From contig JBDTVP010000008.1 in assembly GCA_040007175.1 (NCBI GenBank), positions 1,350-65,349 of the forward strand: 64,000 bases of DNA, read 5' to 3'. The stretch's first letter is position 1; each line of letters starts with the position of its first letter. Made by a program: the position numbers and the translations under genes. Shown here one piece after another: positions 8,092 through 63,420 of the stretch. The notes under the pieces were generated by a model. That model saw only the letters and a program-made list of their open reading frames with translations. It had not been told where the DNA came from and ran no database searches. This DNA comes from Spartobacteria bacterium. Its GTDB lineage: Bacteria; Verrucomicrobiota; Verrucomicrobiia; Chthoniobacterales; UBA10450.

Positions 8092-9093
8092 ATGTCTGCG
8101 AAAATATTCACCGACAAAGAGGTCAATCTCGGCCCGCTTCTCGACAAGACTTGCGCGGTCATCGGCTATGGGGCCCAAGGCCGGGCTCACGCCCTCAACC
8201 TGCGCGACAGCGGAATCCGGGTCATTGTCGGTCTGCTCCCGAAGAGCCGGTCCCGCGTCAGCGCGCGCCGGGAAGGTCTTCGCCTAACGACCACGGCCGC
8301 GGCAGTCCGCCGGGCGGATATCATCTTCCTCGCTCTCCCCGACACCAAGATGTCGGAAATTTACCGGCTCGAGATCGCGCCTCACCTTCGCCCGGGGCAG
8401 ACCCTCCTCTTCGCCCACGGCTTCGCCATTCACTACCGCACGATCGTTCCGCCTAACGACGTCGACGTCGTCATGGTCGCGCCCAAGGGGCTGGGTCCGA
8501 TGGTTCGCACCCAGTTTGTCGCTGGTAAAGGCGTCCCCTGCGTCGTCGCGATTGAACAGGATGCCAGCGGTCATGCTCGCCAGCTCGCTCTCGCCTACGC
8601 CAAGGCGATCGGCGGCACCCGGGCCGGCGTCATCGAAACCACCTTCCGCGAGGAAACCGAAGCCGATCTTTTCGCCGAGCAGGCCGTCTTATGCGGCGGA
8701 ATGAGCGCGCTGGTCCAGGCCGGCTTCGAAACTCTGGTGGAGGCTGGCTACCAACCGGAAATGGCCTATTTCGAATGTCTCCATGAGTTGAAATTCATCG
8801 TCGACCTGATGCATCGGGCCGGCCTCAGCGGGATGCGCGCGCGCATCTCAGAGACGGCCAAATGGGGGGACGTTTCCGTCGGGCCCAAGATCATCGATGC
8901 GAGCGTCAAGCGCCGGATGCAAGAGGCCCTCCGCCAGGTGCAAAGCGGGCAATTCGCCAAGGGTTGGCTGCGCGAAACAGCGACCGGGCGAAAGCGATAC
9001 CAGCGTTTGCTCAAGCAAGGAGAGAAACAGCGGATAGAACAAGTAGGGGAACGCTTGCGCCGCTTGATGCCCTGGCTCGACGATAAAAACTAG
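8092..9093 (+). CDS. ilvC: Ketol-acid reductoisomerase (class I)
   Basis: 333 aa with the 'GYGAQGRAHALNLRDSG' NADP-binding motif. KARI similarity runs along the whole length. Confidence 0.95.
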   Translation: MSAKIFTDKEVNLGPLLDKTCAVIGYGAQGRAHALNLRDSGIRVIVGLLPKSRSRVSARREGLRLTTTAAAVRRADIIFLALPDTKMSEIYRLEIAPHLRPGQTLLFAHGFAIHYRTIVPPNDVDVVMVAPKGLGPMVRTQFVAGKGVPCVVAIEQDASGHARQLALAYAKAIGGTRAGVIETTFREETEADLFAEQAVLCGGMSALVQAGFETLVEAGYQPEMAYFECLHELKFIVDLMHRAGLSGMRARISETAKWGDVSVGPKIIDASVKRRMQEALRQVQSGQFAKGWLRETATGRKRYQRLLKQGEKQRIEQVGERLRRLMPWLDDKN

Positions 9094-9101
9094 ACGGGGC
9101 C

Positions 9102-9125
9102 GCGTGCCGTCCGAAAACGGCACGC
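9102..9125. terminator. 9-bp GC-rich hairpin between convergent ilvC and a small minus-strand ORF
   Basis: GCGTGCCGT-ccgaaa-ACGGCACGC, 9 nt after the ilvC stop. There is no clear U-tract. Confidence 0.4.
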
Positions 9126-9153
9126 CGCAGCAGCGAAAACCTTTCGCCTTCGC

Positions 9154-9447
9154 CTAACGACTCACAAACGTGCCGCGCCCGATGATCAGGATCGGCGTCG
9201 TGGTGGTCGGGACGGCCGTGAAATATGCGATCGGCTTCGGAATGGCCGAGGCCGAGGACATCACATAGTAAACAACCTTCTTCTGCGCGGGCATTTCCTG
9301 CGCCATGTGGGGACGGCCAGTCTTCATCGAAGTCCGATCAATCGTCGGACCAGCGAAGGCTGTGGCACACAGCATGGTTCCGAGGGCGCCGCCCACGGAA
9401 AGCAGAAACAAGCCGCGCAGATGGAACCATCCGCTTCTTGTATTCAT
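9154..9447 (-). CDS. Small secreted/membrane hypothetical protein
   Basis: The ORF is open to 9483; the ATG at 9447 gives a signal-peptide-like N-terminus ('MNTRSGWFHLRGLFLLSVGGALGTMLCATAFAG'). Its stop TAG lies inside the CCTAACGA motif at 9153. Confidence 0.4.
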   Translation of the reverse strand: MNTRSGWFHLRGLFLLSVGGALGTMLCATAFAGPTIDRTSMKTGRPHMAQEMPAQKKVVYYVMSSASAIPKPIAYFTAVPTTTTPILIIGRGTFVSR

Positions 9448-9486
9448 GTCGTCACCTTGCGCCCGCGAAGCACTCAGGCGCAAGGT

Positions 9487-9514
9487 AAATCGTCGGACTT
9501 AAATCCGACGATTT
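9487..9514 (-). terminator. 11-bp hairpin immediately downstream of the TPR gene (minus strand)
   Basis: AAATCGTCGGA-cttaaa-TCCGACGATTT, 4 nt beyond the stop at 9518. The stem is A/T-rich at its base. Confidence 0.4.
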
Positions 9515-9517
9515 CGG

Positions 9518-11986
9518 CTATTCGTCCCAGAGAAAATGCTCGAGCCGCAGCCGCGTCAGCCGTGCCTTGGCTTCCTCACTCCGCGTCCCACCGACCGCCG
9601 CCAGTTTGCGGTAGACCGCGACCGCAGACTTCCAGTCGCTCGATTCCTCGAGCAAGTGCGCGGCGTTGAAGCCGGCCTTGTAGAACCAGAAAAATTCGTG
9701 CTGCACATCCGGCCGCGCGCCTTGCTCGATCACGCCATAGTAGCTCGCGAGCGCCGCCGCCTTATCGTTCAACTTCTCGAGCGCCTTCCCTTTTTTGAAC
9801 TCCGCCTGGTTGCGCCAGTGCGCCGGACCGCCCGGTTCGCCTGCGAGCTGCTGGTAGAGATCGATCGCCTTTTGGTAGTTCGTCGGATCCGTCGCTCCAA
9901 ACTCGTAGAAAATGTCGCCTTTCCCGCAGAGCGCTTCCCGGCGTTCCGCTGGCTTCACGTCGTTCTTCAACACTTCGTCGTAGAGAGCGAGCGCTTCCCG
10001 ATTTTTGCTCAGCCGCCGTTCAATCGCCGCCTCTTCATTGCGCGCGGCCCATTTTAATTCGCCGTCCAGTTTCACCACCTGATCGAGCAAGGCGAGCGCA
10101 TGATCGAGCGCCCCCGCCGCCATGCTGGAGAGGGCGGATCGAGCCGCGAAAAAGAGCGCTTTTTCGGCCAGCGCCGCTTCCGGTTTTTGCTGCGCGAGGA
10201 GTTCGAATTGCGTTTGGGCGTTGGCGAAATCGCCGCGGCGATAATAAGCTTCCGCCACTTTCATCCGCACCTCCGCGGTGAAAGGGGAATCCCTGTGCAC
10301 CTCCAAAAAATGGCTCGCTGCCGTAATCACCGCGCTTTCGTCTTTCGCCGGCGCGGCGTCCTCCAGCCAGATTTGCAGGTAATCCGCGCGCTCGCGCGCC
10401 GCCTCGGTTGGCTTGCCCTGGCGAGCCATTTCCAAGTCCTTCCGCACAGTCGTTAGGTCTGGCTTGGGTGCGTGAAAGGCAATCTCCGCCAACGCCACCC
10501 AGGCTTCTGCGACGCGCGGACTCTGTGGAAAATCGTGAATGAATTTCTGGAAAGTCTGCGCGGCTTCTGCCTTGCCCTGCGCCGCCTGGACCGCGCCTTC
10601 CTCGAGCAGGAGTTCCCCGTGGACGGTTTGCTGCGCCGGATCGTTCGCGATCCTGCGATAATCGGCCGCATACTCGGTCTTGCGCTCGAGCCGGAGCCAG
10701 CAAAGCGCTGCATTAAAAAGTGCGGGCCCTGCCGAGGCGGGAGCAACCTCCGCCAGACGCTCATAAATCGGCGCCGCCTTTTCGAACTGGCCGCTGCGGT
10801 AAGCGGCTTCCGCGACCAGCCACTGGCTTCGCGCACGAAAAGCCGCGGCGGAGTTCTGCCTTCCGGCCGCTTCGGCCGCGGCACCCGCCGCCGCCCATTC
10901 CTTCCGCGCCAGGTGCAGCTTCGCCAGTTCGAGATCGGCTTCGCCTAACGATGCCGAACGTACCGGACTGTCCCGCAATTGCGTCAGCAATTCGATGGCC
11001 TTCTCCCGGTCGCCGGAGCGGAGTTTACTCCGGGCGAAAGACCATTGCGCAAGCGCCTGCCGCGGTTGGGCCGGGTCGCGCAGCCAGCGTTCGAGTTCAT
11101 TCGTCGAGGGTTTGCGTTCCATCCGGTAGAGCTCGTCGAGCCGGGCGAAGATCGCGGGCAAGGCGGAGTCGTTAGGGTGATGATCGATAAATTCTTCCAG
11201 CGCGTCGTCCCCACCCTCCGGCGTCTTGGTTTGGATGTGCGCATCGGCCAGGGCGAAAAGGGTCGCGACGAGCAGGGAATGCGAGACTCCTTCCGGTTTC
11301 TGCAAAATTACGCTCAAGGTTTCAATCGCGCGTTCCGGATGACCCTGCGCCAGGTTGAGCCGGCCGAAGAGGAAGCGCCGGTCGTTCCGCTCCGTCGCGA
11401 GCTGCGGTCTCGTTTGGCGCAAAAGGCGATCGGCGGCGGGGACATCGCCCCGTTCGATCAACAACTGGGCGATGCCCAGCTTGGCCCGCGTGCTCCAGGC
11501 CGCGGTCTTCTCCAGGGTTTGCAGGACGCGGATCGCTTCCTCCTTGCGTCCGAGCGCGCGGAGCGCTTCGGCCGTGCCGAAAGTGGCTTCCATTCGTCGC
11601 GCCGCCGATGCGTCGGCCGCAATCTTTTGATAGAGCGGGAGCGCTTCCGCCCAGCGTTCGAGCGCGGCCAGGCCTTGCGCCCGCCAGAACCCCGCTTCTG
11701 AGTCGTTCGTTAGGCTGGAAGAGTCGCGGAAAATCTTGAGCGCCTCCTCCGGCTGGCCGGACCGGACCAGGGCCTCGATCAGCTTGCGCTGCGCGCCCGC
11801 CCGCTCGCCCGCGGTGGGTTTCCCGGAGAGGAAAGCCTGCAGTCGCGTGACCGCGACTTCCGGCACCCCCTCGGCCAGGGGCGCGGCCGCACTCGCGAGC
11901 GCTGCCCCGGTGGTCTGCGCCTCGAGGAGGAATCCCCCTAACGAAAACCCGGCCAGACCAACGAGTGCGAAGAAAAGCACCTTCAT
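9518..11986 (-). CDS. Large secreted TPR-repeat protein
   Basis: The ATG at 11986 gives the signal peptide '[18 protein letters not shown]'. This ATG overlaps the uvrA stop (ATGA). The remainder is TPR-like helical repeats. Confidence 0.8.
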   Translation of the reverse strand: MKVLFFALVGLAGFSLGGFLLEAQTTGAALASAAAPLAEGVPEVAVTRLQAFLSGKPTAGERAGAQRKLIEALVRSGQPEEALKIFRDSSSLTNDSEAGFWRAQGLAALERWAEALPLYQKIAADASAARRMEATFGTAEALRALGRKEEAIRVLQTLEKTAAWSTRAKLGIAQLLIERGDVPAADRLLRQTRPQLATERNDRRFLFGRLNLAQGHPERAIETLSVILQKPEGVSHSLLVATLFALADAHIQTKTPEGGDDALEEFIDHHPNDSALPAIFARLDELYRMERKPSTNELERWLRDPAQPRQALAQWSFARSKLRSGDREKAIELLTQLRDSPVRSASLGEADLELAKLHLARKEWAAAGAAAEAAGRQNSAAAFRARSQWLVAEAAYRSGQFEKAAPIYERLAEVAPASAGPALFNAALCWLRLERKTEYAADYRRIANDPAQQTVHGELLLEEGAVQAAQGKAEAAQTFQKFIHDFPQSPRVAEAWVALAEIAFHAPKPDLTTVRKDLEMARQGKPTEAARERADYLQIWLEDAAPAKDESAVITAASHFLEVHRDSPFTAEVRMKVAEAYYRRGDFANAQTQFELLAQQKPEAALAEKALFFAARSALSSMAAGALDHALALLDQVVKLDGELKWAARNEEAAIERRLSKNREALALYDEVLKNDVKPAERREALCGKGDIFYEFGATDPTNYQKAIDLYQQLAGEPGGPAHWRNQAEFKKGKALEKLNDKAAALASYYGVIEQGARPDVQHEFFWFYKAGFNAAHLLEESSDWKSAVAVYRKLAAVGGTRSEEAKARLTRLRLEHFLWDE

Positions 11987-14862
11987 TTGCCTAACAACGG
12001 CCGCAAATGCGCCCCGGTATAACTCCCTTTCGCGCGCGCAATTTTTTCCGGCGTTCCAGCCGCCACGATCGCGCCGCCCCCTGCGCCGCCTTCCGGCCCG
12101 AGGTCGATCACCCAGTCGGCGCATTTGATCATTTCCAGATTGTGCTCGATCACGACCAGCGTGTTCCCCGCGTCGCGCAACTTCATCAGCACCTGCAGAA
12201 GTTTTTCGATGTCGGCAAAATGGAGCCCGGTGGTCGGTTCGTCGAGGATGTAGAGCGTGCGGCCGGTCGCTTTTTTCGCCAGTTCGGTGGCGAGCTTGAC
12301 CCGTTGCGCTTCGCCGCCGGAGAGCGTGGTGGCGGCTTGCCCGAGTCGCAAATAGCCGAGCCCGACATCCTGCATGGCGCTCAATTTATCCGAGACCGTC
12401 GGGACGTTGCGGAAGAAGCGCGACGCTTCGTCAACCGGCATCTCGAGCACGTCGGCGATGTTTTTCCCTTTGTAAGTAATCTCCAGCGTCTCGCGATTAT
12501 AGCGTTTGCCCTGGCAGACTTCGCAGACCGCGTAGGCGTCGGCGAGGAAATGCATCTCGATCTTGATCAACCCGTCGCCCTGACAATTTTCGCAGCGGCC
12601 GCCTTTGACGTTAAAACTAAAGCGCCCCGCGCTGTAGCCGCGAATCCGCGAGGCCGGCAACTGGCTGAAGAGCTCGCGGATCGGGGTGAACGCGCCGGTG
12701 TAAGTAATGGGATTTGAGCGCGGGGTGCGGCCGATCGCGCTTTGATCGATGATGATCGCTTTGTCGACCTGCTCGAGTCCCTGCAAGGCGCGGTGTTCGC
12801 CCGGCTTGTCCTTCGAGTTGTAGAAATGGCGAAAGAGAGCGCGTCGCAGAATATCGTCCACCAGGGTCGATTTCCCGCTCCCGGAGACGCCGGTGACGCA
12901 GGTGAAACAGCCTAACGGAAAGGCGGCGGTCACGTTCTTAAGATTATTTTCGGTCGCGCCGACGATCGTGATCCAGCCCTCGGACGACGGGTCGCTTGCG
13001 CGCGGCGCAGTCCGCAGGCGCGGGATAGCGATGCGCGAGCGGCCCGCGAGATAAGCCGCGGTCGGCGAGTTCGGTGCGTCCAGAATTTCCGCGAGCGGAC
13101 CCTGCGCGACAATCTCGCCGCCGCGCGGACCGGCGCCCGGCCCAAGATCGAGAATGTAATCGGCGGCCCGAATTGTTTCCTCATCGTGCTCGACCACGAT
13201 GACGGAATTCCCGAGATCGCGCAGACGGCGGAGGGTGCCGATGAGGCGCGCGTTGTCGCGCTGATGGAGTCCGATGCTCGGCTCATCGAGAACGTAGAGC
13301 ACGCCGGCGAGGCCGGAACCGATCTGAGTCGCGAGCCGGATGCGCTGCGCTTCGCCGCCGGAGAGGGTGCCGCTCTCGCGGTTGAGGGTGAGATAATCGA
13401 GCCCGACTTCGAGCAGGAACTCGAGCCGGGAAGAAATTTCATGCACGACTTCCGAGACAATCTCCCGTTGCGCATCCGAAAGCTTTAAGTGCCTAACGAA
13501 ATGAGCCGCGGCCGCAATCGTCGCCTCGCAGAACTGGTGGATGTTTGCCTCCCGGCCCCCCGCTTCCTTGATCGTGACGGCGAGAATTTCCGGCTTGAGC
13601 CGCGCCCCGTGACAGACGCCGCAGGGCGCGCGATTCATGAAGGAGCGAATCCGGCTGCGGGTAAACTCACTCTCGGTTTCCGCGTAGAGCCGCTGCAACT
13701 GCGGAAGCAAGCCTTCGAAAGGCCGGGCCGTTTTCGTAGCGGTGCGCCCGGCGCCGCCGAAACTCATCTCGATCGGGCTGTCGCCTGTCCCGAAGTAGAG
13801 CGCTTCCTTAAATTTCTCCGGCAAATCTTCGAACGGAATGTTGTCCGCGACATTGAAATGCTTAACGAGCGCGGTTTGCAATCCGCGATAGTAAGCCTGC
13901 ATCCGTTTCGTCCCGCGCCGCCAGGGCACGACCGCGCCGTCGGCGAGCGATTTCGAGGTGTCCGTGACCATCAACTCCGGGTCGCAAACCAGTTGGGTCC
14001 CGAGGCCGTGGCAGGCCGGGCAGGCGCCGAGATGGCTGTTAAAGGAAAAATGTTTCGGGGTCAGCTTCCCTAACGAAAAGTCCGTCTCGGGATTTCCGTA
14101 ATCGGTCGAGTAACGGACTTCCTCCCATTCGCTCTCGGTTTCGCGCAGGACGGCGAGGCGGTTATCGCCCCACTTCAAGGCCGTCTCGACTGAATCGGCC
14201 AGCCGGGTCCGAATCCCCTCGCGCACCACGAGCCGATCGACCACCGCCTCGATCGTGTGGCGTAGACCTTTCTTCAACCGGATCGGTGCCGGCCGGCCCA
14301 ACTCCATGATCTCGCCATCCACCCGAACCCGGACGAAGCCTTCGCGTTTCGTTTTTTCGATCACGTCGCGGAATTCTCCACTCTCGTTTCGCACCAATGG
14401 CGCGAGCAGGATGATCTTCGTCTCCTCCGGGTAACCGAGAATTTGATCGACGATTTGTTGCGTCGTCTGGCGGAAGATCGGCTGACCGGTGACCGGATCG
14501 TGCGGTTGCCCGACCGACGAAAATAGGACCCGAAGATAATCGTAAATCTCCGTCGTGGTGGCGATAATCGAGCGCGGATTGGTCCCCGCAGTGCGCTGCT
14601 CGATCGCGATCGCGGGCGAAAGGCCCTCGATGAAATCGACATCCGGCTTTTCCATCTGGTCGAGGAACTGCCGGGCATAAGCGGAAAGGCTCTCGACATA
14701 GCGGCGCTGCCCTTCGGCATAGAGAGTGTCGAAGGCGAGCGACGATTTTCCGGAGCCGCTCATCCCGGTGATCACGACCAGTTTTTCCCTCGGAATCTCG
14801 ACGTGGAGATTCTTTAGATTGTGCTGGCGCGCACCACTGATCTTGATAGTCTTTGCTGGCAT
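11983..14862 (-). CDS. uvrA: Excinuclease ABC subunit A
   Basis: Starts '[18 protein letters not shown]'. It has two ABC ATPase modules ('[12 protein letters not shown]', '[11 protein letters not shown]', 'LSGGEAQR' twice) and zinc-finger Cys clusters. Confidence 0.97.
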
Positions 14863-15296: not shown

Positions 15297-16397
15297 TCAC
15301 AGCGTCAGCAGCAACTCCGCGATCTCGAGCGACGCCCGCGGGCGGCTCAGCAAGCTGATATTTCGCGACCACTCCCGCCAGACCCGCGCCTCATCCGCAA
15401 AGGCCAACTGCACGGCGGTGCGGATCGCTTCCGGCGTCGTCGCCACGACTCCCGATTTCGTTTCCTCGAGCAAACGCGCGTTCCCTTCCTCCTGTCCCGG
15501 CACGATCTGGTTAATGATCATCGGACATTTTGCCGCGATCGTCTCCTGCACCGTCGCGCCGCCGGCTTTGCTGATGAGAAGATGACTTTCCAGCATGAGC
15601 CGCGGCAGTTGATCGCTCCAGCCGACAATCTCGAAGTCGTGGCCCGTCTCCGCGCCCACGCTCTCGACCATCTTCCGCAGTCGCTCGTCGCGGCCCACCG
15701 TCACCGTCAGGCGCACATCGGGAATCTGCGCCAGGCTACGAATGATCCCGGGCGCGGCGACCCCGCCGGCGTTGATCATGTAAAGAAGCCGGCGTTCCCC
15801 GCCCGGGAGTGGTGGCCGGCGCAGCTCGCCCAGCTCGGCAAATTTGGGCGTCACCGGGAAACCGCTCACCCGCAGCTTCTCTGCGGGCACGCCGGCGGCG
15901 CGGAGGACGGCGGCCGTCTGGTCGTTAGGCACGAGGAAGAGGTCGGCCGCGCCGCGAAACCAGATGGCGTTCACTGTGATTGAATCGGTCACGCAGACCA
16001 CGCGCCGAAAAGCAGGCGTGGCCTCGCCCACAATGGTCTCGAGGAGATGCGTGTAAGCCGGGTAAACCGAGACCACCGCGGTCGGTCGAAACCGTTCCAG
16101 CAAACGCCGCAGCCGGCTGCGCGCCAGGAAAAGCCAGCGCAGTTGCGCGCCGTAATTATCTCGCCCGTCAAACGAGCGATAAATTCGTCCCCAAGTCCGC
16201 GGCGCGTGGTTGATCAGCGCGAGATAACCTTTTCGCGCCCAGTCGTTCGCGAACCCGAAAGTCTCGGCAAAGATATCGCGCACTTCGACCACCGCCGCTC
16301 CGCCCGCGACGGCCGCGAGCCCGTCCCGCATCCCGCGCGCGGCCGCGTTGTGACCTTCCCCGAAACCGGCGCTCAATATCAGGATTCGTTTCTCCAT
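15297..16397 (-). CDS. GT28-family glycolipid synthase (MGDG synthase / UgtP-like diacylglycerol glycosyltransferase)
   Basis: 366 aa. The N-terminus 'RILILSAGFGEGHNAAARGM' is typical of the MGDG_synth domain, and the C-terminal half is GT-B-like. Confidence 0.8.
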   Translation of the reverse strand: MEKRILILSAGFGEGHNAAARGMRDGLAAVAGGAAVVEVRDIFAETFGFANDWARKGYLALINHAPRTWGRIYRSFDGRDNYGAQLRWLFLARSRLRRLLERFRPTAVVSVYPAYTHLLETIVGEATPAFRRVVCVTDSITVNAIWFRGAADLFLVPNDQTAAVLRAAGVPAEKLRVSGFPVTPKFAELGELRRPPLPGGERRLLYMINAGGVAAPGIIRSLAQIPDVRLTVTVGRDERLRKMVESVGAETGHDFEIVGWSDQLPRLMLESHLLISKAGGATVQETIAAKCPMIINQIVPGQEEGNARLLEETKSGVVATTPEAIRTAVQLAFADEARVWREWSRNISLLSRPRASLEIAELLLTL

Positions 16398-16428
16398 TCG
16401 TTAGGCCGCGATCTTGGCGGAGAGTTTA

Positions 16429-22830: not shown

Positions 22831-22905
22831 GCCGGTCGAGCCGCAAAGGTGGCCGGAGCGGACGGTGGATGGACAAGGTGGGGACGCGACCTATTGGTTT
22901 GCTCC

Positions 22906-52082: not shown

Positions 52083-52128
52083 CGTCCTCCATCGTTCTCA
52101 ACGCGTTCGTTAGGCGCGCTTCCCTTGC

Positions 52129-53718: not shown

Positions 53719-53730
53719 CGAATTGGAAGT

Positions 53731-54105: not shown

Positions 54106-55257
54106 TTAGGCCAGGCCGAGCGTGGCGCGGCTCGGGCGCGCGAACTTGAAACCGCCTAACGAATCGCCGGTTGCGAAATTTTTTGTCAGACCGAGGAACT
54201 GGAATTTTGCGCCCAGGAACTCCGGGTGAATCAGGGTCTGCAAGGCGCGGCTTTTTTCCGCGCCGGCGGAGGCGAGCGCGGGATGGGTCGAAAGCAATCC
54301 GGTGAGAAAATGATGCTGATCGGTAAAGCCCGCGAGCTCCAAGCCGCATTCTTCGGCCTCTTCCACCAGACTGGTCCACTCCACGTGGGTGGTGATGTCA
54401 CTTTGACCGACACGTTCCAGGAGCGAGGGCAGGACGCGATGTTCGGCGTAGCACTGCAGCGTCCCGGTGCGCCGGCTCGGCGCGTAAAATTCCTCCCTCG
54501 TTAGGCCGTAGTCGGCGATCAGCACCATCCCGCGTTGGAGTTTGGGCGCGAGCGTTTCGATCCAGTCGAGCGCGGCGAGATTGATCTCGGTTTCGTATCC
54601 GCCCGGCGGGGTCGCGGGTAGTTTCGCGAGGCGCGCTTTGACCCGCGGATCGGCGACCGGCCGATCGACAAAGGTAAAACCGCAGGAGGTGCGCTCCACC
54701 AGGCGTTCCTGCCAGCGGCGCTCCTCGCCTGCGCCGTTTTTGACGAGGAGGTGCACCGGCATGGCATCGAGTAGTTCGTTGGAAAAATGCACGCCGCAAA
54801 ACGGCTCCATCGCTTCCAGCGACTCGACCCATTCCGTGCGCGCGACAAATTGCCGCAGCACGCCCTGCTGACGCTGCCGCAGAATCGCGAACGGCTCGAC
54901 GATCCGGTAGCGCACGAGCGCAAAGAGGTCCGGGTGTTGCGCCCGCAAAGCCTCCAGAACGTCGGTCGCGAATTCCCCGTGATGTGCGCCCTGCTCGACG
55001 ATCACGAAATCGTTAGGCCGATTCAGCTTTTCCCAGATCTCCGCGAACTGCCCGGCCATCAATTTCCCGAAGAGCGGCCCCACGCTCACACTCGTGAAAT
55101 AATCGCCCCGCCGCCCGATCGCGCACCGGCCCGAGCTGTAATACCCGTGCGCGGGATGATAAAGCGCCTGCTCCATGAACCACGCGAACGGCACCGGCCC
55201 TCGGGCGCGAATCCCCGCCCGGATCTCTGAGATGAGTTCGAAATTCCCTTCTTCCAC
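54106..55257 (-). CDS. MidA/NDUFAF7-family (DUF185) SAM-dependent methyltransferase
   Basis: 'PFAWFMEQALYHPAHGYYS' and 'IVEQGAHHGEFA' are typical of MidA-type protein arginine methyltransferases. Confidence 0.85.
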   Translation of the reverse strand: MEEGNFELISEIRAGIRARGPVPFAWFMEQALYHPAHGYYSSGRCAIGRRGDYFTSVSVGPLFGKLMAGQFAEIWEKLNRPNDFVIVEQGAHHGEFATDVLEALRAQHPDLFALVRYRIVEPFAILRQRQQGVLRQFVARTEWVESLEAMEPFCGVHFSNELLDAMPVHLLVKNGAGEERRWQERLVERTSCGFTFVDRPVADPRVKARLAKLPATPPGGYETEINLAALDWIETLAPKLQRGMVLIADYGLTREEFYAPSRRTGTLQCYAEHRVLPSLLERVGQSDITTHVEWTSLVEEAEECGLELAGFTDQHHFLTGLLSTHPALASAGAEKSRALQTLIHPEFLGAKFQFLGLTKNFATGDSLGGFKFARPSRATLGLA

Positions 55258-57947: not shown

Positions 57948-58956
57948 GCGCGACCGGACGGAAGCCTTTCGCCTAACGGTTCTCAATCCCGGCGGACGCG
58001 ATCCCGCGCAGGATTTTTCCGCCGGGAACAATTCGCCTAACGACGGCCACGCGCCGGTCAATTTCCACGGCTACGCCGCCTGCACCCGGGGCCGCTTTGA
58101 ACGCGACGTCGAGCCGGCGGTCGCGGCCGACCGTCCCGTCCTCTTGCTCCTGCGCGGCGATTTCAAAGAAACGCAACGCGCGCTCCGCGTGCTCCAGGAG
58201 CGCGGGCTGACCGTGGCGGTTACATTAAAAGAAACCGGCCTGCACCAGATTGCCCAACAACTGGCCGACGCGAAACGCGCGACGCGTTTTCGCGAGATCG
58301 TGGCGGCGGCGGATGGTTGCCTGGCGGCCACCCCGGAAGCGCTCACCTTCTATGGCCGCGGAGAGTTCATTCCCACGCCCTATCCGCTCGATGATGCGGG
58401 CTGGGATTTTTCCCGGCCGTTAGGCGAACGGAGGGGAATTTTCGTCGGGACTCGCGAATGGGGCGTGCCGTCGCGTCACCATTTGGCCGCGCTTCTCCTC
58501 GCGTTCGAGCTCGGCGAACCGGTCACGGTTTTTGACGAAGATCCGCGCCGCTGCCGGAAGACGCTGGCCGCGCTCGGGGTCGAGACCACTTCGCTCCGCG
58601 TGCTCGAGCGCCGGCTCCCTTATCCCGATTATCTGGCCGAGATGGCGCGGCACCGGATCGTTTTGCAAGCCGACAAGAGCGCGGTTCCCGGACAGGTCGC
58701 GGGCGACGCGTTGCTTTGCCGATTGCCCTGTGTCGGCGGAGACGGCGCAGTCGATCGGCTCGCCTTCGCGGCCACTTGCGGAAGTGGGCGCTCGTTAGGC
58801 GAGCTGAAGGAACTGGCGACCCGCCTGCTACAGAAGGCTGATTTTTATTCCGCAACCGTCGAGGCCTCGCAGAAAGAAGCGCGCGCCCGACTCGGCTCTG
58901 AAGCCGTCGCCCGCCAGCTCGAAAAATTTTTCTCGAGTCTCTCCAGCCCGGCCTGA
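57907..58956 (+). CDS. Hypothetical protein (possibly degenerate GT-B/Rossmann-like)
   Basis: The ORF is open from 57877. After the PBP1A stop, no ATG or GTG occurs in frame until TTG 58144 / GTG 58189, so the start either overlaps mrcA (ATG 57877 or 57907) or is TTG 58144. Confidence 0.45.
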   Translation: MSRRRRLISVTTTERDRTEAFRLTVLNPGGRDPAQDFSAGNNSPNDGHAPVNFHGYAACTRGRFERDVEPAVAADRPVLLLLRGDFKETQRALRVLQERGLTVAVTLKETGLHQIAQQLADAKRATRFREIVAAADGCLAATPEALTFYGRGEFIPTPYPLDDAGWDFSRPLGERRGIFVGTREWGVPSRHHLAALLLAFELGEPVTVFDEDPRRCRKTLAALGVETTSLRVLERRLPYPDYLAEMARHRIVLQADKSAVPGQVAGDALLCRLPCVGGDGAVDRLAFAATCGSGRSLGELKELATRLLQKADFYSATVEASQKEARARLGSEAVARQLEKFFSSLSSPA

Positions 58957-59003
58957 TGCACCAGCGCGCCCCCTAACGAACAACAACCGACCGCCCCCCG
59001 TGC

Positions 59004-59148: not shown

Positions 59149-60312
59149 TCAACTGCGGCCAGCGAGCGCTTCGAAATAAAAGTCCTCCAATGCGCGAGCC
59201 TGCGTCCCCTGCTCAAACTTCGCTGCGACGGCGCGCGAACCAGCTTCCGCCAGTTCACTCAAGGCCGCCGGCCGGTTCGTCCATTCAAGGAGGACCGCCC
59301 CGAGCGCAGCCTCGTCCCGTTCCGCGACAAGAACCCCGCTGACTCCCTCCGCGATCGCCTCCGGGATCCCGCCATGCCGCGTTGCGAAAACAGGCAATCC
59401 GCTCGCCATCGCCTCCAGCATCGAATTCGGAACTCCCTCCTGATTTCCGTCCCCGCCCATCTCGCTCGGATGAAGAAACAGATGCGATTCGTAAAACAGC
59501 TCGCGCAATTGCGGCTGCGCCAAGAACCCCGCGAAGCGAACCCGCTCGGCGATACCCAGCTCGCAGGCCAGATCTTGCAGTTCTTCCTGCATGGTGCCTT
59601 CGCCCGCGATCGTGAAAACCGCGCCGGGATAGGTGCGCCGAAAGGCCGCGAAAGCGCGGAGACTGGTGCGCAATCCCTTCTTCTCAATCAGCCGGCCAGC
59701 TTGCAGAAATTTCCAAGCCCCGTCGTTAGGCCAGGTCCGGGCTCGGAAAGGAATTTTAGCGAGCGGAATCCCGGTGCGATGCAGCCGGATCTTTTCCGCG
59801 GGACAACCAAGCTGGCCGACCGCGCGCGCCAGCGACTCTGACCGGACAAGAACAAGCCGCGCCGCGGCCAGCATCTCCCGTGTCGCCTCCCGGTAGCGCG
59901 GCTTGTCGAGATCGACGAGCACGTCCGCGCCATGGAACGATACCACTGTGGGCTTTGGCCAGGTGCGCATCAGCGGCAGGAGATGCACCGCGATGTGCCC
60001 AAAATAAATATGGAGAAGCTGCGCGTCGTTCTCCGCCAGGATACGCATGAGCTGCGCAATTTCCCCACGCGACATTTGCCAGGGCGCGTCCCGCAATTTG
60101 CGGAACCAAAACCTTCGCAAAAAATGCGCCGCCGGTTGCCCCACGACAAAGACCGGCGCAAATGGAAAGCGCTCCGCTTCTTCCCGTTTCTGCGCGATGA
60201 CCACCGGCCGAAAGCGCTCGAGCGCCGTGAGCTGCCGGTAGATATGCAGCATCTCCGGCTTGAGAAACGTCGCGCAATAACACGCGACGACAGGCGGAGA
60301 GCGCTCAGGCAC
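59149..60312 (-). CDS. Glycosyltransferase family 4 (GT-B, RfaG-like)
   Basis: 387 aa with the C-terminal 'EGVPNSMLEAMASGLPVFATRHGGIPEAI' EX7E-type motif. GTG start. Confidence 0.88.
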   Translation of the reverse strand: MPERSPPVVACYCATFLKPEMLHIYRQLTALERFRPVVIAQKREEAERFPFAPVFVVGQPAAHFLRRFWFRKLRDAPWQMSRGEIAQLMRILAENDAQLLHIYFGHIAVHLLPLMRTWPKPTVVSFHGADVLVDLDKPRYREATREMLAAARLVLVRSESLARAVGQLGCPAEKIRLHRTGIPLAKIPFRARTWPNDGAWKFLQAGRLIEKKGLRTSLRAFAAFRRTYPGAVFTIAGEGTMQEELQDLACELGIAERVRFAGFLAQPQLRELFYESHLFLHPSEMGGDGNQEGVPNSMLEAMASGLPVFATRHGGIPEAIAEGVSGVLVAERDEAALGAVLLEWTNRPAALSELAEAGSRAVAAKFEQGTQARALEDFYFEALAGRS

Positions 60313-61737: not shown

Positions 61738-61792
61738 GCCTCGCCCACGCAAGCGGAGCCCTCAAGGAGGGCGCGGAAAATCCGAAAAAAAC

Positions 61793-61950
61793 TTGTCATC
61801 CCGAACCGCGCAGACGGTGAGGGACCTCGCAGTCGTAGAGCGTGGGCGCGCGGAAGTGAAAACTTCTCGCGCAGATCCGCCCAGGGTTAAAAACGACATT
61901 GAATTTGAAGTTGTGAGATCCCGCGCCGTCTGCGCGACTCGGGATGACAA
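61793..61950. repeat. REPIN-like element (TTGTCATCCCGA ... TCGGGATGACAA), 158 bp, upstream of efp
   Basis: The left arm is TTGTCATCCCGAACCGCGCAGACGGTGAGGGACCTCGCAG. The right arm is ...GTTGTGAGATCCCGCGCCGTCTGCGCGACTCGGGATGACAA. Confidence 0.8.
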
Positions 61951-62019
61951 ATTGATAAAACACCCACCCGCGGCGATGACTTGTAAAATCCACCGCTCTC
62001 CACTAAGAATCTGACCTCT

Positions 62020-62577
62020 ATGGCCGCCGCAAACGATCTCCGCAAAGGAATGGCAATTAAATACAACGGCAACACCGCCATCGTGCTCGACGTGCAGCAT
62101 CGCACCCCGGGAAATTTGCGCGCCTTTGTCCAGGCCATCATCCGCTACATCAACACCGGCAAGAGCGCCGATGTCCGGTTCGGTTCGACCGACAAAGTGG
62201 AACTGGTCGATATCGCGCGGACCACGCTCGAGTTCAGTTACAAAGACAACACCGGTTTCCATTTCATGGATCCGAGCACTTACGAGACGATCACTTTGCA
62301 GGAAAGCCTGCTGAGCGAGGCGAAGGATTACCTGGTCGAGAATCTCCCGGTGGAAGTCCTCTTTACGGAAGGTCGTCCGGTGCAGGTGGAATTGCCCTCC
62401 TCCGTCCAGCTCAAGGTGGTCGAGGCGCCGGAAGGCCTGCGCGGCGATACCGCGAGCAACGTGACCAAGCCCGCGCTGCTCGAGACCGGTAAGACCGTCA
62501 ATGTCCCGCTCTTCATCAACGAGGGCGAAACGATCAAGATCGATACGCGGACCGGCACCTACATGGGCCGCGCCTAA
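62020..62577 (+). CDS. efp: Elongation factor P family protein (non-canonical loop tip)
   Basis: 185 aa. 'DLRKGMAIKYNG', 'EAPEGLRGDTASNVTKPALLETG' and 'IKIDTRTGTYMGRA' match EF-P/EfpL. The loop reads 'RTPGNLRAF' where E. coli has 'KPGKGQAF'. The stop TAA lies in GCCTAACGA. Confidence 0.9.
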   Translation: MAAANDLRKGMAIKYNGNTAIVLDVQHRTPGNLRAFVQAIIRYINTGKSADVRFGSTDKVELVDIARTTLEFSYKDNTGFHFMDPSTYETITLQESLLSEAKDYLVENLPVEVLFTEGRPVQVELPSSVQLKVVEAPEGLRGDTASNVTKPALLETGKTVNVPLFINEGETIKIDTRTGTYMGRA

Positions 62578-62580
62578 CGA

Positions 62581-63420
62581 ATGGCGGCACGCCGCGTCAC
62601 CCGCCAGCCCGCCGCCCGGCGCAAGCCGGCGCCGAAGCGCGGCAAACCGACGACCAAGCGACGCGTCCGGGTGATGCCTTACGTTGTCCCCACCCGGGGA
62701 GCGACCCTGGCCGAGGGCCTGATGGTCCCGACCAAATGGGTCAAGTTCGTCTTCGCCCTTTTTCTCCTCCCGCTCTGCGCTGTCCTGAGCCAGACCTTCT
62801 TCACCGCCTTCGCGCGCGCGACGGTCGCGGAACGTCTCTGGGCCGGCCAGGAATTCTGGTTCTTCTCGTTAGGGGCAGTCCTTTGGCTGATCGCTTTCTT
62901 CGGCCTGCCCCGCCCGATTCTGATTTACGTTTTCGGGCATGAATTGACCCACGCGCTCTGGGTTTGGCTGATGGGCGGACGGGTCAGCCATTTCCGGGTC
63001 GGCCGCGACGGCGGACATATCCTGACCGACAAGAATAATTTTCTGATTGCCCTCGCTCCTTATTTTTTTCCGCTCTACAGCCTCATCGTGCTCGCGCTTT
63101 ACGGCGCGGCCAGCCTCTTCACCAGCATGCAGCCCTACGGCCAGTTGCTCTACGCGCTGATCGGCGTGACCTGGGCGTTCCATTGCACTTTCACGCTCTG
63201 GATGATCCCGAAAAACCAGAGCGACCTGAGCGATAACGGCACGATTTTTTCCCTCGTCGTCATCTACCTGATGAACCTGCTCCTCCTCGGCGCGATGCTG
63301 ATCATCGCCTCGCCCAGCCTCACCTTCGCCAGCTTCAGCGCGGATCTGTTGCGCAACACGACAAACTTTTCGCACTGGGTCACGACAGTCTGCGAGAGTC
63401 TCAGCGGCGTGGGCGGCTAA
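62581..63420 (+). CDS. Polytopic membrane protein with HExxH motif (putative intramembrane/M50-like metalloprotease)
   Basis: 279 aa with a basic N-terminus, 6 or more TM segments, and 'FGHELTHALWVW' within a TM segment. The ATG follows efp as TAA-CGA-ATG. Confidence 0.55.
   Translation: MAARRVTRQPAARRKPAPKRGKPTTKRRVRVMPYVVPTRGATLAEGLMVPTKWVKFVFALFLLPLCAVLSQTFFTAFARATVAERLWAGQEFWFFSLGAVLWLIAFFGLPRPILIYVFGHELTHALWVWLMGGRVSHFRVGRDGGHILTDKNNFLIALAPYFFPLYSLIVLALYGAASLFTSMQPYGQLLYALIGVTWAFHCTFTLWMIPKNQSDLSDNGTIFSLVVIYLMNLLLLGAMLIIASPSLTFASFSADLLRNTTNFSHWVTTVCESLSGVGG

What the first reader, a model, noticed from the sequence alone, without database searches (positions are those of the whole stretch)
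8283..62873. Hyper-abundant, strand-neutral 8/9-mer (G)CCTAACGA at about 1 copy per kb: a DNA-uptake-sequence-like genomic signal
By eye I count 53 exact copies. As CCTAACGA on the + strand (25): 8283, 8452, 9153, 10944, 11937, 13492, 14069, 17360, 17898, 21348, 23926, 25060, 33303, 35357, 37602, 38722, 41265, 47582, 47968, 51263, 52690, 54155, 58036, 58972, 62573. As TCGTTAGG on the + strand (28): 10450, 11169, 11707, 15922, 16398, 18172, 18387, 19937, 21722, 22824, 28384, 29061, 29439, 33042, 38897, 41633, 42259, 43063, 43404, 44801, 51953, 52107, 54498, 55010, 58792, 59723, 61400, 62866. Assuming about 60% GC, a zero-order hand estimate gives only about 1-2 occurrences of this 8-mer in 64 kb on both strands. 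42 of the 53 copies are preceded by G, and no further flank is conserved. One-mismatch relatives are also common: about 11 CCTAACGG/CCGTTAGG and about 7 CCTAACA. Copies sit inside unrelated housekeeping genes (ilvC twice, uvrA, serS, prmC, lpdA, sucB, nfo and others). They occupy every reading frame that avoids the internal TAA/TAG: C-CTA-ACG-A (Leu-Thr), CCT-AAC-GA (Pro-Asn-Asp/Glu), TCG-TTA-GG (Ser-Leu-Gly) and TC-GTT-AGG (Val-Arg). This forces CTA/TTA Leu codons, which are normally rare in GC-rich genomes. Selection therefore appears to act on the DNA word rather than on a peptide. The 25:28 orientation split argues against polar signals such as Chi or KOPS. The length, density, strand symmetry and frame independence match what is established for Neisseria DUS and Pasteurellaceae USS. 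I know of no such signal described for PVC-type bacteria.
Basis: partly seen in the sequence, partly recalled or inferred. Interest (0 to 1): 0.85.

Follow-up and report, generated by a model that had tools for sequence, protein, structure and literature searches.

The report
Uptake-signal-like genome word GCCTAACGA
A nine-letter DNA word, GCCTAACGA, occurs about once per thousand bases on both strands through the genes of a group of uncultured soil Verrucomicrobia (its eight-letter core also in some Gemmatimonadaceae and phage contigs); it behaves like the "self-recognition" uptake words of Neisseria and Haemophilus, which I found described for no other bacterial group.

Summary
CCTAACGA occurs 53 times (25+/28-) against about 1 expected, and it is the top 8-mer of the window. 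There is no conserved flank beyond G at -1. The window comes from an uncultured Chthoniobacterales (Verrucomicrobiota) soil bacterium. All close relatives sampled carry the word at 0.6-1.2 per kb, with dialects such as GCCTAACGAGT. Most more distant relatives lack it. Copies arise in situ by point substitutions, including CTC->TTA synonymous changes. They are conserved between lineages in 53% of cases, against 13-20% for random 8-mers. They show no replichore or transcription polarity. They pile up at gene 3' ends, and 17 of 47 stop codons lie in the word or a near variant. They are absent from a conserved low-GC3 pilin/TPR segment (1-8282). The same 8-mer core, GCCTAACG, is also the top word in two Gemmatimonadaceae MAGs. 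It is also dense in two phage contigs, one of which encodes an integrase. Every sequence-level property of DUS/USS that I could test is met, except Neisseria-style inverted pairs. Uptake bias itself cannot be tested here. Best reading (about 0.5): an uptake-signal analogue kept up by transfer-linked molecular drive. Rivals are a Chi-like self signal and a HIP1-like methylation- or nucleoid-linked word.

The parts
8283..8290 (+). word copy (G at -1) in ilvC, sense, read Leu-Thr
8452..8459 (+). copy in ilvC, sense, Pro-Asn-Asp
9153..9160 (+). copy overlapping the stop (TAG on - strand) of an uncertain small ORF 9154-9483
10450..10457 (-). copy in TPR gene 9518-11986, sense, Leu-Thr
10944..10951 (+). 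copy in TPR gene, antisense, Ser-Leu-Gly
11169..11176 (-). copy in TPR gene, sense, Pro-Asn-Asp
11707..11714 (-). copy in TPR gene, sense, Leu-Thr
11937..11944 (+). copy in TPR gene, antisense, Ser-Leu-Gly
13492..13499 (+). copy in uvrA, antisense, Val-Arg; at a variable residue pair in orthologues
14069..14076 (+). copy in uvrA, antisense, Ser-Leu-Gly; shared with L005, L323-L325; outgroups have TCC CTC GAC and similar
15922..15929 (-). copy in MGDG-synthase-like gene, sense, Pro-Asn-Asp
16398..16405 (-). intergenic copy, conserved in L323-L325
17360..17367 (+). copy whose TAA is the stop of the BrkB-family gene 16414-17364
17898..17905 (+). copy in amidase_2 gene, sense, Leu-Thr
18172..18179 (-). 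copy in amidase_2 gene, antisense, Ser-Leu-Gly; conserved in L323-L325
18387..18394 (-). copy whose complement TAG is the stop of amidase_2 gene 17377-18393
19937..19944 (-). copy in BNR/dockerin gene, antisense, Val-Arg
21348..21355 (+). copy in amidohydrolase gene, sense, Leu-Thr
21722..21729 (-). copy in amidohydrolase gene, antisense, Val-Arg
22824..22831 (-). copy whose complement TAG is the stop of the amidohydrolase gene 20986-22830
23926..23933 (+). copy in prolyl oligopeptidase gene, sense, Pro-Asn-Glu
25060..25067 (+). copy 4 nt before the stop of the prolyl oligopeptidase gene, Pro-Asn-Glu-stop
28384..28391 (-). copy in serS, antisense, Val-Arg
29061..29068 (-). copy in serS, antisense, Ser-Leu-Gly
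29439..29446 (-). copy in DUF72 gene, sense, Pro-Asn-Asp, 46 nt from its end
33042..33049 (-). copy in TPR gene 32130-33110, antisense, Ser-Leu-Gly
33303..33310 (+). copy supplying the TAG stop of response-regulator gene 33304-35526 (- strand)
35357..35364 (+). copy in response-regulator gene, antisense, Ser-Leu-Gly
37602..37609 (+). intergenic copy upstream of prfA
38722..38729 (+). copy whose TAA is the stop of prfA
38897..38904 (-). copy in prmC, antisense, Ser-Leu-Gly
41265..41272 (+). copy in DUF4870 gene, sense, Leu-Thr, 17 nt from its end
41633..41640 (-). copy in nfo-like AP endonuclease gene, sense, Leu-Thr
42259..42266 (-). copy in YhdP-like gene, sense, Leu-Thr, 29 nt from its end
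43063..43070 (-). copy in YhdP-like gene, sense, Leu-Thr
43404..43411 (-). copy in YhdP-like gene, sense, Pro-Asn-Asp
44801..44808 (-). copy in DUF420 gene, antisense, Ser-Leu-Gly
47582..47589 (+). one copy supplying both stops of two convergent genes: TAA of accA (+) and TAG of the esterase gene (-)
47968..47975 (+). copy in esterase gene, antisense, Ser-Leu-Gly; shared with L085/L086
51263..51270 (+). copy in E2 (sucB-like) gene, sense, Leu-Thr; relatives show graded near-matches GGGTCACGA, GCGTCACGA and GCCTGACGA
52107..52114 (-). intergenic copy after E2 gene
52690..52697 (+). copy in lpdA, sense, Pro-Asn-Glu; conserved in L085, L086, L088, L090
54155..54162 (+). copy in Methyltransf_28 gene, antisense, Ser-Leu-Gly; conserved in 5 relatives
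54498..54505 (-). copy in Methyltransf_28 gene, sense, Leu-Thr; window-specific gain
55010..55017 (-). copy in Methyltransf_28 gene, sense, Pro-Asn-Asp; shared only with L090
58036..58043 (+). copy in unknown ORF 57877-58956, sense, Pro-Asn-Asp
58792..58799 (-). copy in unknown ORF, antisense, Ser-Leu-Gly; conserved in 5 relatives
58972..58979 (+). intergenic copy
59723..59730 (-). copy in GT4 glycosyltransferase gene, sense, Pro-Asn-Asp; conserved in 4 close relatives (L086, L088, L090, L091) and in the distant relative L093
61400..61407 (-). copy in SIS/CBS gene, antisense, Val-Arg; window-specific
62573..62580 (+). copy whose TAA is the stop of efp; L086 has GCCTGACGA (TGA stop) at the same place
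62866..62873 (-). copy in unknown ORF 62581-63420, antisense, Ser-Leu-Gly; shared with L086, L090, L147, L093
15177..15185 (+). variant GCCTAACAA supplying TAA stop of ORF 14853-15182
29390..29398 (-). variant CCCTAACGG supplying both stops of convergent serS (TAG) and DUF72 gene (TAA)
35920..35928 (-). variant GCCTAACTT supplying TAA stop of AMP-binding enzyme gene 35923-37311
53713..53721 (+). variant CGCTAACGA supplying TAA stop of lpdA
63415..63423 (+). variant GGCTAACGA supplying TAA stop of ORF 62581-63420
1..8282 (.). word-free segment (GT2/methyltransferase, unknown, TPR, prepilin-like 5320-5724, TPR genes). It has low GC3 (0.64-0.68 against 0.75 elsewhere). It is also word-free and low-GC in orthologous segments of L323-L325

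Best explanation
GCCTAACGA is a lineage-specific genomic signature word, kept at about 1 copy per kb by a transfer-linked molecular drive. It is most likely the sequence preferred by the DNA-uptake apparatus of natural transformation in this Chthoniobacterales clade, an analogue of the Neisseria DUS and the Pasteurellaceae USS. What is shown: the word is created in place by ordinary point substitutions, on either strand. Once present it persists far longer than the surrounding sequence. It settles where proteins tolerate it: the four frames without its internal TAA/TAG, variable residues, the last 100 nt of genes, the stop codon itself, and spacers. What is inferred: DNA fragments from dead relatives that carry the word are bound and imported preferentially, probably by a pilus-associated receptor. 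They then replace the homologous stretch by recombination. Alleles that have gained the word are therefore over-transmitted, and alleles that have lost it are overwritten. Related lineages drift to dialects (GCCTAACGAGT, GCCTAACGAC). Temperate phages that live in these genomes would acquire the word in the same way. A conserved low-GC3 pilin/TPR segment stays free of the word, possibly because it takes little part in this recombinational exchange.
For: The enrichment is 55-120 fold over Markov or shuffle expectation, at 0.97 copies per kb. That is in the range I recall for USS and far above Chi. There is no conserved flank, so this is not repeat-element debris. Orientation is 25:28. Within genes, 22 copies are sense and 19 antisense, in all four stop-free frames. 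Over eight loci, 82 copies lie on the G-rich strand and 96 on the C-rich strand. Copies originate in situ: in the uvrA codon alignment, CTC/CTG/CTT Leu in all relatives is TTA in the window, and TCC CTC becomes TCG TTA. Graded near-matches occur among relatives at single sites. Window sites are retained in ingroup relatives in 61 of 115 cases (53%), against 13-20% for random 8-mers in the same alignments. The word is clade-specific. All relatives with PBP1 identity of 76% or more, or UvrA identity of 80% or more, carry it at 0.6-1.2 per kb. Most relatives with PBP1 identity of 60-70% carry none. Dialects exist. Copies are biased to gene termini, with 12 of 47 in the last 100 nt against 4.2 expected, as reported for Pasteurellaceae USS (PMC2346458). 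Phage contig L169 (terminase, portal, holin, repressor-like HTH protein) has 1.2 copies per kb, and integrase-bearing L218 has 0.8 per kb. This parallels the accumulation of USS in temperate Pasteurellaceae phages (PMC6776037). The word is absent from a compositionally atypical segment (P = 3e-4 for no copy; GC3 Mann-Whitney p = 3e-4).
Against: There is no evidence that these uncultured bacteria are competent. Competence genes could not be surveyed, and only a generic prepilin-like gene is in the window. There are no closely spaced inverted pairs forming terminators as in Neisseria. Spacing is Poisson-like rather than more even than random (CV 0.87). The identical 8-mer core is the top word in two Gemmatimonadaceae MAGs that are not sister lineages. 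That requires an extra assumption, such as lateral transfer of the receptor. The word-free segment is conserved as word-free in several lineages, so 'recently imported DNA' does not explain it. A lysogenic lifestyle for phage L169 is not demonstrated.
Confidence: 0.5

Rival explanations
1. The word is a Chi-like 'self' signal read inside the cell by a DNA-end-processing or defence nuclease (RecBCD/AddAB type or an unknown system). DNA that carries the word often enough is spared or channelled into recombinational repair. Both the chromosome and resident or infecting phages are therefore selected to carry it.
For: The word is an 8-9 nt asymmetric sequence, dense on both host and phage DNA. Sites are conserved above background, which fits selection. 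The patchy cross-phylum occurrence would fit a laterally mobile nuclease or defence module. A preprint (bioRxiv 10.1101/2024.09.10.611283) discusses a Chi-like effect for another hyper-abundant octamer, HIP1.
Against: There is no replichore polarity (25:28 in a window with monotonic GC skew; 82:96 over eight loci; a skew of 70% or more is rejected at p = 0.006). Known Chi sites are polar (my knowledge). The 55-120 fold over-representation and dialect extension to 11 nt exceed what I know for any Chi. The word is AT-cored, whereas known Chi sites are G-rich.
Confidence: 0.15
2. The word is a HIP1-like element. It would be tied to an orphan DNA methyltransferase and associated repair, or to a nucleoid-organising protein. 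It would then be maintained by selection for an intracellular function, or by a sequence-specific repair bias, independently of DNA uptake.
For: HIP1 (GCGATCGC) is 15-300 fold over-represented in cyanobacteria, sits in genes in several frames, and is conserved between genomes (PMC5861425). It is recognised by orphan methyltransferases (PMC4390886). Methyltransferases move laterally with ease (my knowledge), which would account for the same core in two phyla with a patchy distribution. An in-cell process would also act on prophages.
Against: The word is not palindromic. No known repair bias produces a 50-100 fold excess of an asymmetric 9-mer (my knowledge). No methyltransferase candidate was identified; the MTase-domain genes in the window are prmC, Methyltransf_28 and a GT2 fusion, none of them a DNA MTase family. 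Periodicity could not be tested on 64 kb. HIP1 itself is now being linked to transformation, so this rival partly merges with the main reading.
Confidence: 0.15
3. The word is a donor-side packaging signal. It would be recognised by the terminase of a generalised transducing phage or a gene-transfer agent, so that host DNA rich in the word is packaged and spread preferentially. This is a drive at export rather than at import.
For: The logic of the drive is the same as for uptake, so the same genomic footprint is expected. Phage contigs with terminase genes carry the word densely.
Against: No precedent is known to me for a pac-like signal at 1 per kb in both orientations. The phages of the two phyla share no detectable genes. 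There is no GTA cluster in the sequence at hand.
Confidence: 0.05
4. The word is an artefact or trivial by-product: a compositional or codon-usage effect, a favoured peptide, mobile-element debris, or assembly contamination.
For: None beyond the bare possibility.
Against: Shuffles and Markov models give about 1 expected copy. There are four different reading frames on two strands, and rare codons are used. There is no longer conserved unit. The same sites appear in independent assemblies from NCBI, Logan, JGI and ENA. Copies arise by substitution and not by insertion. About 70 control loci show nothing comparable.
Confidence: 0.01

Closest known systems
Pasteurellaceae uptake signal sequence (USS; Hin-type AAGTGCGGT, Apl-type ACAAGCGGT)
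   Same: Both have a 9-nt asymmetric core at about 1 per kb, about 100-fold over-represented, with equal use of both strands. Both are mostly inside genes in several frames and are biased to gene termini (against PMC2346458). Both have clade dialects. Both accumulate slowly by point mutation, and both appear on phage DNA: USS accumulates in temperate phages (PMC6776037), and the word is dense on an integrase-bearing phage contig.
   Different: The word and the phylum are different. No AT-rich helically phased flanks were seen here, only weak pyrimidines at -3/-4. Competence and uptake bias are unknown here. Use as a stop codon is prominent here because the word contains TAA/TAG.
Neisseriaceae DNA uptake sequence (DUS, GCCGTCTGAA and dialects; receptor ComP)
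   Same: Both are hyper-abundant 10-12-mers with family-level dialects. Both are strand-symmetric and occur in coding and non-coding DNA. L005's 11-mer GCCTAACGAGT resembles a DUS dialect extension.
   Different: DUS often occurs as inverted pairs that form terminators and is enriched between genes (my knowledge). Here there are no close inverted pairs, and 77% of copies lie wholly within genes. No receptor is identified.
Cyanobacterial HIP1 (GCGATCGC)
   Same: Both are hyper-abundant octamers with 15-300 fold excess. Both occur within genes and are conserved between genomes beyond background (PMC5861425). HIP1 has recently been linked to transformation efficiency (bioRxiv 10.1101/2024.09.10.611283).
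   Different: HIP1 is a palindrome and a known methylation target, and it is phylum-wide. The word here is asymmetric, is restricted to sub-clades of two phyla, and its modification state is unknown.
Chi (crossover hotspot instigator) and KOPS/AIMS polar octamers
   Same: All are short asymmetric words over-represented on chromosomes and read by DNA-processing motors.
   Different: Those are strongly co-oriented with replication and only a few-fold over-represented (my knowledge). The word here shows no polarity and a 55-120 fold excess.

Membership tests
DNA uptake sequences (DUS/USS type) | Short (9-12 nt) word at roughly 1 per kb, orders of magnitude above expectation | tested here: met
   53 copies against about 1 expected; 0.97 per kb; the 9-mer has 42 copies against 0.3-0.7 expected
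DNA uptake sequences (DUS/USS type) | Both orientations about equally frequent, with no replication or transcription polarity | tested here: met
   25:28 by strand; 22 sense and 19 antisense; 82:96 relative to GC skew over eight loci
DNA uptake sequences (DUS/USS type) | Stand-alone word that arises by point substitution inside unrelated genes and spacers, not part of a longer repeat | tested here: met
   No flank conservation. Orthologue alignments show substitutions, including synonymous CTC->TTA, and no insertions
DNA uptake sequences (DUS/USS type) | Clade-specific, with dialects among related lineages | tested here: met
   Present in all close relatives and absent from most distant ones. 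Dialects are GCCTAACGAGT (L005), GCCTAACGAC (L090, phage L169) and GCCTAACG without the A (Gemmatimonadaceae)
DNA uptake sequences (DUS/USS type) | Sites maintained longer than neutral sequence | tested here: met
   61 of 115 (53%) conserved, against 13-20% for random 8-mers
DNA uptake sequences (DUS/USS type) | Lower density in accessory or atypical DNA; accumulation in long-resident temperate phages | tested here: inconclusive
   The 8.3-kb low-GC3 segment has none, but it is conserved as word-free in several lineages. Phage contigs L169 and L218 carry the word densely, but only L218 shows an integrase
DNA uptake sequences (DUS/USS type) | Intragenic bias to gene termini (Pasteurellaceae) | tested here: met
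   12 of 47 in the last 100 nt against 4.2 expected, p = 7e-4. 17 of 47 stop codons lie in the word or a variant with 2 or fewer mismatches
DNA uptake sequences (DUS/USS type) | Inverted-repeat pairs acting as terminators (Neisseria) | tested here: not met
   Only isolated close pairs in 182 kb of ingroup sequence; the smallest gap in the window is 155 nt
DNA uptake sequences (DUS/USS type) | Competent cells take up word-bearing DNA preferentially | not testable with these tools
   The organisms are uncultured; this needs an experiment
DNA uptake sequences (DUS/USS type) | Competence machinery and a sequence-specific receptor (for example the ComP minor pilin) encoded in the genome | not tested
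   Only 64 kb plus flanks were available. One prepilin-like gene (5320-5724) matches only through its N-terminal methylation motif. It also lies next to word-free relatives' orthologues
Chi sites | Co-orientation with replication (about 70-80% on one strand) | tested here: not met
   28 of 53; a skew of 70% or more is rejected at p = 0.006; pooled 82:96
Chi sites | Modulates RecBCD/AddAB | not testable with these tools
   Biochemical assay needed
KOPS / AIMS | Extreme strand skew switching at ori and dif | tested here: not met
   No skew within a window of uniform GC-skew sign
HIP1-type iterated palindromes | Palindromic word | tested here: not met
   GCCTAACGA differs from its reverse complement TCGTTAGGC
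HIP1-type iterated palindromes | Cognate orphan methyltransferase | not testable with these tools
   No whole genome or methylome available
REP/MITE or other mobile-element debris | Word embedded in a longer conserved unit; copies arise by insertion | tested here: not met
   Information content is near zero beyond -1 and +1. Orthologous sites align without indels

The most novel reading that the evidence does not exclude
The same 8-mer core, GCCTAACG, is imposed on the genomes of sub-lineages of two unrelated soil phyla (Verrucomicrobiota/Chthoniobacterales and Gemmatimonadota/Gemmatimonadaceae) and on phage contigs with matching dialects. The cause would be a laterally mobile sequence-recognition module. 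That module could be an uptake receptor, or something not yet known, such as a self-recognition system. In that case genome-wide 'DNA languages' are transferable traits and are much more widespread in environmental bacteria than the two textbook families suggest. Sister lineages with a different dispersed word, (A)AGATCGACA(A), hint at this.
Probability: 0.25. Interest if true: 0.9.

Novelty: new member of a known kind. Interest (0 to 1): 0.75.

Why it matters
As far as I know, sequence-specific DNA uptake words are established only in Neisseriaceae and Pasteurellaceae, both host-associated Proteobacteria. A third case with the same genomic footprint, in abundant and uncultured soil Verrucomicrobia, would have several consequences. 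It would show that self-biased DNA exchange, or some equivalent word-based drive, is not a peculiarity of two pathogen families. It would give a simple sequence tag for assigning contigs and phages to these hosts in soil metagenomes. It would make gene flow in the soil microbiome testable. The shared core in Gemmatimonadaceae raises the question of whether recognition specificity itself moves between phyla. The heavy use of the word as a stop codon shows how far such a drive can reshape coding sequence and codon and stop usage.

Tried and rejected
- Peptide or codon explanation. Rejected: four frames on two strands, rare codons, and synonymous changes towards the word.
- Longer repeat or mobile-element debris. 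Rejected: no flank conservation and no indels.
- Chi/KOPS polarity. Rejected.
- More-even-than-random spacing, or one copy per gene. Not found: CV is 0.87 (P = 0.17), and 13 genes have no copy.
- Inverted pairs or terminators. Not found.
- 'The word-free 8.3 kb is a recent import into this lineage'. Weakened: the orthologous segment is syntenic, word-free and low-GC in L323-L325 too, although L005 has copies there.
- 'Phage copies argue against uptake'. Dropped after reading that temperate Pasteurellaceae phages accumulate USS.
- A gene shared between the Verrucomicrobia-type and Gemmatimonadaceae-type phage contigs, as a candidate determinant. None found by tblastx.
- Other frequent words in relatives. 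AATGACGAA (L097 and others) is clustered in local arrays, and L104 and L132 are tandem repeats, so these are different phenomena. CCTAAC counts in L137 and L093 are near expectation for a 6-mer.
- Viral contigs of about 50% GC with 5-8 copies (L234, L296, L307). Not significant after allowing for selection on two copies and for about 160 contigs tested.
- Literature searches for the word itself returned only primers. Searches for uptake sequences in Verrucomicrobia/Chthoniobacter or Gemmatimonadetes found no description of such a word.
- Rfam and tRNA scans. Only two tRNAs, unrelated to the word.
- Surveying competence genes was not possible, because whole genomes cannot be fetched with these tools.

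Full report
**Observation.** One copy starts at 51952 and not 51953. Dinucleotide-preserving shuffles give 0.98 +/- 0.97 copies. Markov models of order 1-3 give 0.9-1.9 for the 8-mer and 0.3-0.7 for the 9-mer GCCTAACGA, which occurs 42 times. CCTAACGA and GCCTAACG (54 copies) are the two commonest 8-mers of a 60.8% GC window, ahead of every GC-rich word. G precedes 42 of the 53 copies. There is a weak A at +1 and weak pyrimidines at -3/-4. Otherwise the flanks carry no information over 15 nt on either side, so the word is not part of a longer repeat. The most conserved core is CCTAAC (80 copies). End variants are also enriched: GCCTAACGG 9, GCCTAACAA 8, CCCTAACGA 8. As a control, I applied the same test to about 70 loci of 10-23 kb from other phyla. 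Their best 8-mers reach log10 P of -4 to -10, against -73 for the window.

**Context.** I built a gene map from ORFs, codon-position GC and Pfam. UvrA and PBP1 relatives place the window in uncultured Chthoniobacterales, phylum Verrucomicrobiota. Independent assemblies that are 99.9% identical exist in NCBI and Logan, so the word is not an assembly artefact. Of the 53 copies, 41 lie wholly inside genes: 22 sense and 19 antisense. They use only the four frames that avoid the internal TAA/TAG: Leu-Thr 11, Pro-Asn-Asp/Glu 11, Ser-Leu-Gly 13, Val-Arg 6. Four copies are intergenic. Eight overlap a gene end and supply its stop codon, TAA on one strand or TAG on the other. The word holds 38% of all CTA codons, 32% of TTA, 20% of AGG and 22% of CCT.

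**Stop codons and gene ends.** Allowing up to two mismatches, 15 copies or variants overlap 17 of the 47 stop codons. In two cases one copy ends two convergent genes: accA/esterase at 47582, and serS/DUF72 at 29390. Twelve of the 47 genic copies lie in the last 100 nt of a gene, against 4.2 expected (p = 7e-4). Spacing is otherwise Poisson-like (CV 0.87). The one exception is that the first 8282 nt hold no copy (P = 3e-4).

**How copies arise and persist.** In a codon alignment of uvrA from the window and five relatives, the word appears by substitution at positions where the protein tolerates it. One Leu codon is CTC, CTG or CTT in all relatives and is TTA in the window, which gives CCGTTAGGC. 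TCC CTC in a word-free relative corresponds to TCG TTA in the window and L005. At a variable residue pair the window reads Val-Arg. There are no insertions. Across 13 ingroup relatives, window sites that fall in alignable sequence are still the exact 8-mer in 61 of 115 cases (53%). Random 8-mers in the same alignments are fully conserved in 13-20%. Lineage-specific gains are also visible. Some sites show graded near-matches among relatives, for example GGGTCACGA, GCGTCACGA and GCCTGACGA at the position of the GCCTAACGA copy at 51263. At the efp stop, GCC-TGA-CGA in one relative corresponds to GCC-TAA-CGA here. The force therefore acts on the DNA word, copies are gained by ordinary mutation, and they are then preferentially retained.

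**Distribution among relatives.** Every close relative sampled carries the word at 0.6-1.2 per kb. This covers PBP1 identity of 76% or more (L085-L091, L152, L156), L005 (UvrA 80% identity), and L323-L325 (UvrA 84-91% identity). Most relatives at 60-70% PBP1 identity, and L006-L009, have none. A few (L103, L147, L163, L093) show a weak excess, partly at conserved sites. Dialects exist. L005 extends the word to GCCTAACGAGT (G at +1 in 24 of 29 copies, T at +2 in 19 of 29). L090 prefers C at +1. The window weakly prefers A.

**A second phylum.** Among the control loci, the only other strong outliers are two Gemmatimonadaceae MAGs. Their top 8-mer is the same core, GCCTAACG: 11 copies against 0.3 expected in L023, and 8 against 0.16 in L033. 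They show no preference for A at position 9. The two are not closer to each other than to seven word-free Gemmatimonadaceae. The distribution in that family is therefore patchy.

**Polarity.** The window has a GC skew that is negative in most 2-kb bins, with an almost steadily falling cumulative skew. It still holds 25 + and 28 - copies. Pooled over eight Verrucomicrobial loci, 82 copies lie on the G-rich strand and 96 on the C-rich strand (p = 0.33). A skew of 70% or more is rejected for the window alone (p = 0.006). This excludes KOPS/AIMS-type signals and makes a classical Chi unlikely.

**Phages.** I scanned IMG/VR for two copies 60-120 nt apart, or 200-230 nt apart for inverted pairs. Apart from tandem repeats and chance hits, this returned phage contigs with dispersed copies at host density. 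L169 (62.7% GC) has 17 CCTAACG in 13.9 kb, dialect GCCTAACGAC. It encodes a large terminase, a portal, a holin and a repressor-like HTH protein. L218 (67.9% GC) has 12 copies in 14.9 kb, dialect GCCTAACG[C/G/A] as in Gemmatimonadaceae. It encodes RecT and an integrase. L168 and L291 are weaker cases. I first took this as evidence against an uptake signal. However, Szafranski et al. (PMC6776037) report that temperate Pasteurellaceae phages accumulate USS up to host-like frequencies while large lytic phages do not. The phage finding therefore fits the uptake model, provided these phages are temperate. That is shown only for L218.

**The word-free segment.** Positions 1-8282 encode a GT2/methyltransferase fusion, an unknown protein, two TPR proteins and a small prepilin-like protein. 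Their GC3 (0.64-0.68) lies at or below that of every other gene of the window (mean 0.75; Mann-Whitney p = 3e-4). The orthologous segment is also word-free and low in GC in L323, L324 and L325. L005 has six copies there. This is therefore a conserved property of the segment and not a recent import. One possibility, which is inference only, is that this segment takes little part in the recombinational exchange that would drive both GC-biased conversion and word accumulation.

**Interpretation.** The footprint matches that of the two established families of uptake sequences in nearly every property that can be read from sequence:
- density and fold-excess;
- strand symmetry;
- stand-alone word;
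- origin by point mutation;
- retention above background;
- clade dialects;
- gene-terminus bias (reported for Pasteurellaceae, PMC2346458);
- presence on a phage contig that encodes an integrase.

The one DUS feature that was tested and not met is close inverted pairs. The defining feature, preferential uptake, cannot be tested here, and competence genes could not be surveyed. I therefore rate an uptake-signal analogue, maintained by transfer-linked molecular drive, as the best explanation at about 0.5. The main rivals are an intracellular Chi-like or defence 'self' signal (0.15) and a HIP1-like word tied to methylation, repair or nucleoid structure (0.15). HIP1 is itself conserved, 15-300 fold over-represented (PMC5861425), and recently linked to transformation (bioRxiv 10.1101/2024.09.10.611283). 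A donor-side packaging signal is a minor rival (0.05). Artefact, peptide and repeat-debris explanations are excluded. The shared core in two phyla, with a patchy distribution, is most simply explained by a laterally mobile recognition determinant. This is compatible with the main reading through receptor transfer, but it raises the weight of the rivals.

**Novelty.** Full-text searches for the word, and for uptake sequences in Verrucomicrobia, Chthoniobacter or Gemmatimonadetes, found no description of it. If the uptake reading holds, this is a new member of the small class of genomic uptake words and the first outside Proteobacteria. Genome-wide tests can be run directly on the Mb-scale contigs of the clade.

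Noticed in passing
L023 (22.9 kb) and L033 (12 kb), Gemmatimonadaceae MAG contigs: The same 8-mer GCCTAACG is the most over-represented word: 11 copies against 0.3 expected, and 8 against 0.16. Copies are dispersed, on both strands and in several frames, without the final A. Seven other Gemmatimonadaceae loci lack it, and the two carriers are not sister lineages.
   Followed up: partly
L169 (IMGVR_UViG_3300037261_000237), L218 (IMGVR_UViG_3300010373_000065), L168, L291: Phage contigs carry the word at host-like density with host-matching dialects. L169 encodes terminase, portal and holin. L218 encodes RecT and an integrase. The word could serve as a host-assignment tag for soil phages.
   Followed up: partly
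L006, L009, L139, L141, L142 (word-free Chthoniobacterales relatives): A different dispersed word, (C)AAGATCGACAA(T), is frequent. For example, the 9-mer occurs 11 times in 22.9 kb of L006, and GATCGACA occurs 14 times against 0.95 expected in L142. It is found on both strands, mostly read as Val-Asp-Leu, and some copies lie in conserved UvrA peptides. It may be a second signature word in a sister lineage.
   Followed up: partly
L097 5773-5885 and 14524-14628; also L107, L108, L110, L153: AATGACGAA occurs in tight local clusters of 6-7 copies in both orientations within about 100 nt. This is a clustered array, unlike the dispersed word.
   Followed up: no
window, all gene ends from 8092 onwards: Stop codon usage is unusual for a 61% GC genome: TAG 22, TAA 14, TGA 11 of 47. 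Ten of the 14 TAA stops and 6 of the 22 TAG stops sit in the word or a near variant.
   Followed up: partly
window 47582-47589 and 29390-29398: A single copy (or variant) of the word provides the stop codons of two convergent genes at once: accA/esterase and serS/DUF72. The gene ends overlap by 4 nt.
   Followed up: yes
window 1-8282; L323 17.7-23 kb; L324 18.2-22.9 kb; L325 16-22.9 kb: A syntenic block of TPR, prepilin-like (one or two copies), TPR and glycosyltransferase/methyltransferase genes is word-free and 3-6% lower in GC than its surroundings in several lineages.
   Followed up: partly
L201/L237 (IMGVR_UViG_3300023035_000005, 36% GC, 157-kb contig); L212, L175: Unrelated repeats happen to contain the word. 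One is a dispersed 13-mer, CCTAACGAAGTAT, in a large low-GC viral contig. The other is a 17-nt tandem repeat, TACGCCTAACGAGTAGG.
   Followed up: no
window 26886-26958 and 33185-33265: tRNA-Ala(CGC) and tRNA-Leu(CAG) are the only Rfam or tRNA hits. A word copy lies 38 nt downstream of tRNA-Leu.
   Followed up: yes
window 11983-11986: The uvrA stop overlaps the start of the downstream TPR gene by 4 nt on the - strand. In L005 the uvrA stop itself is the TAA of a word copy.
   Followed up: no
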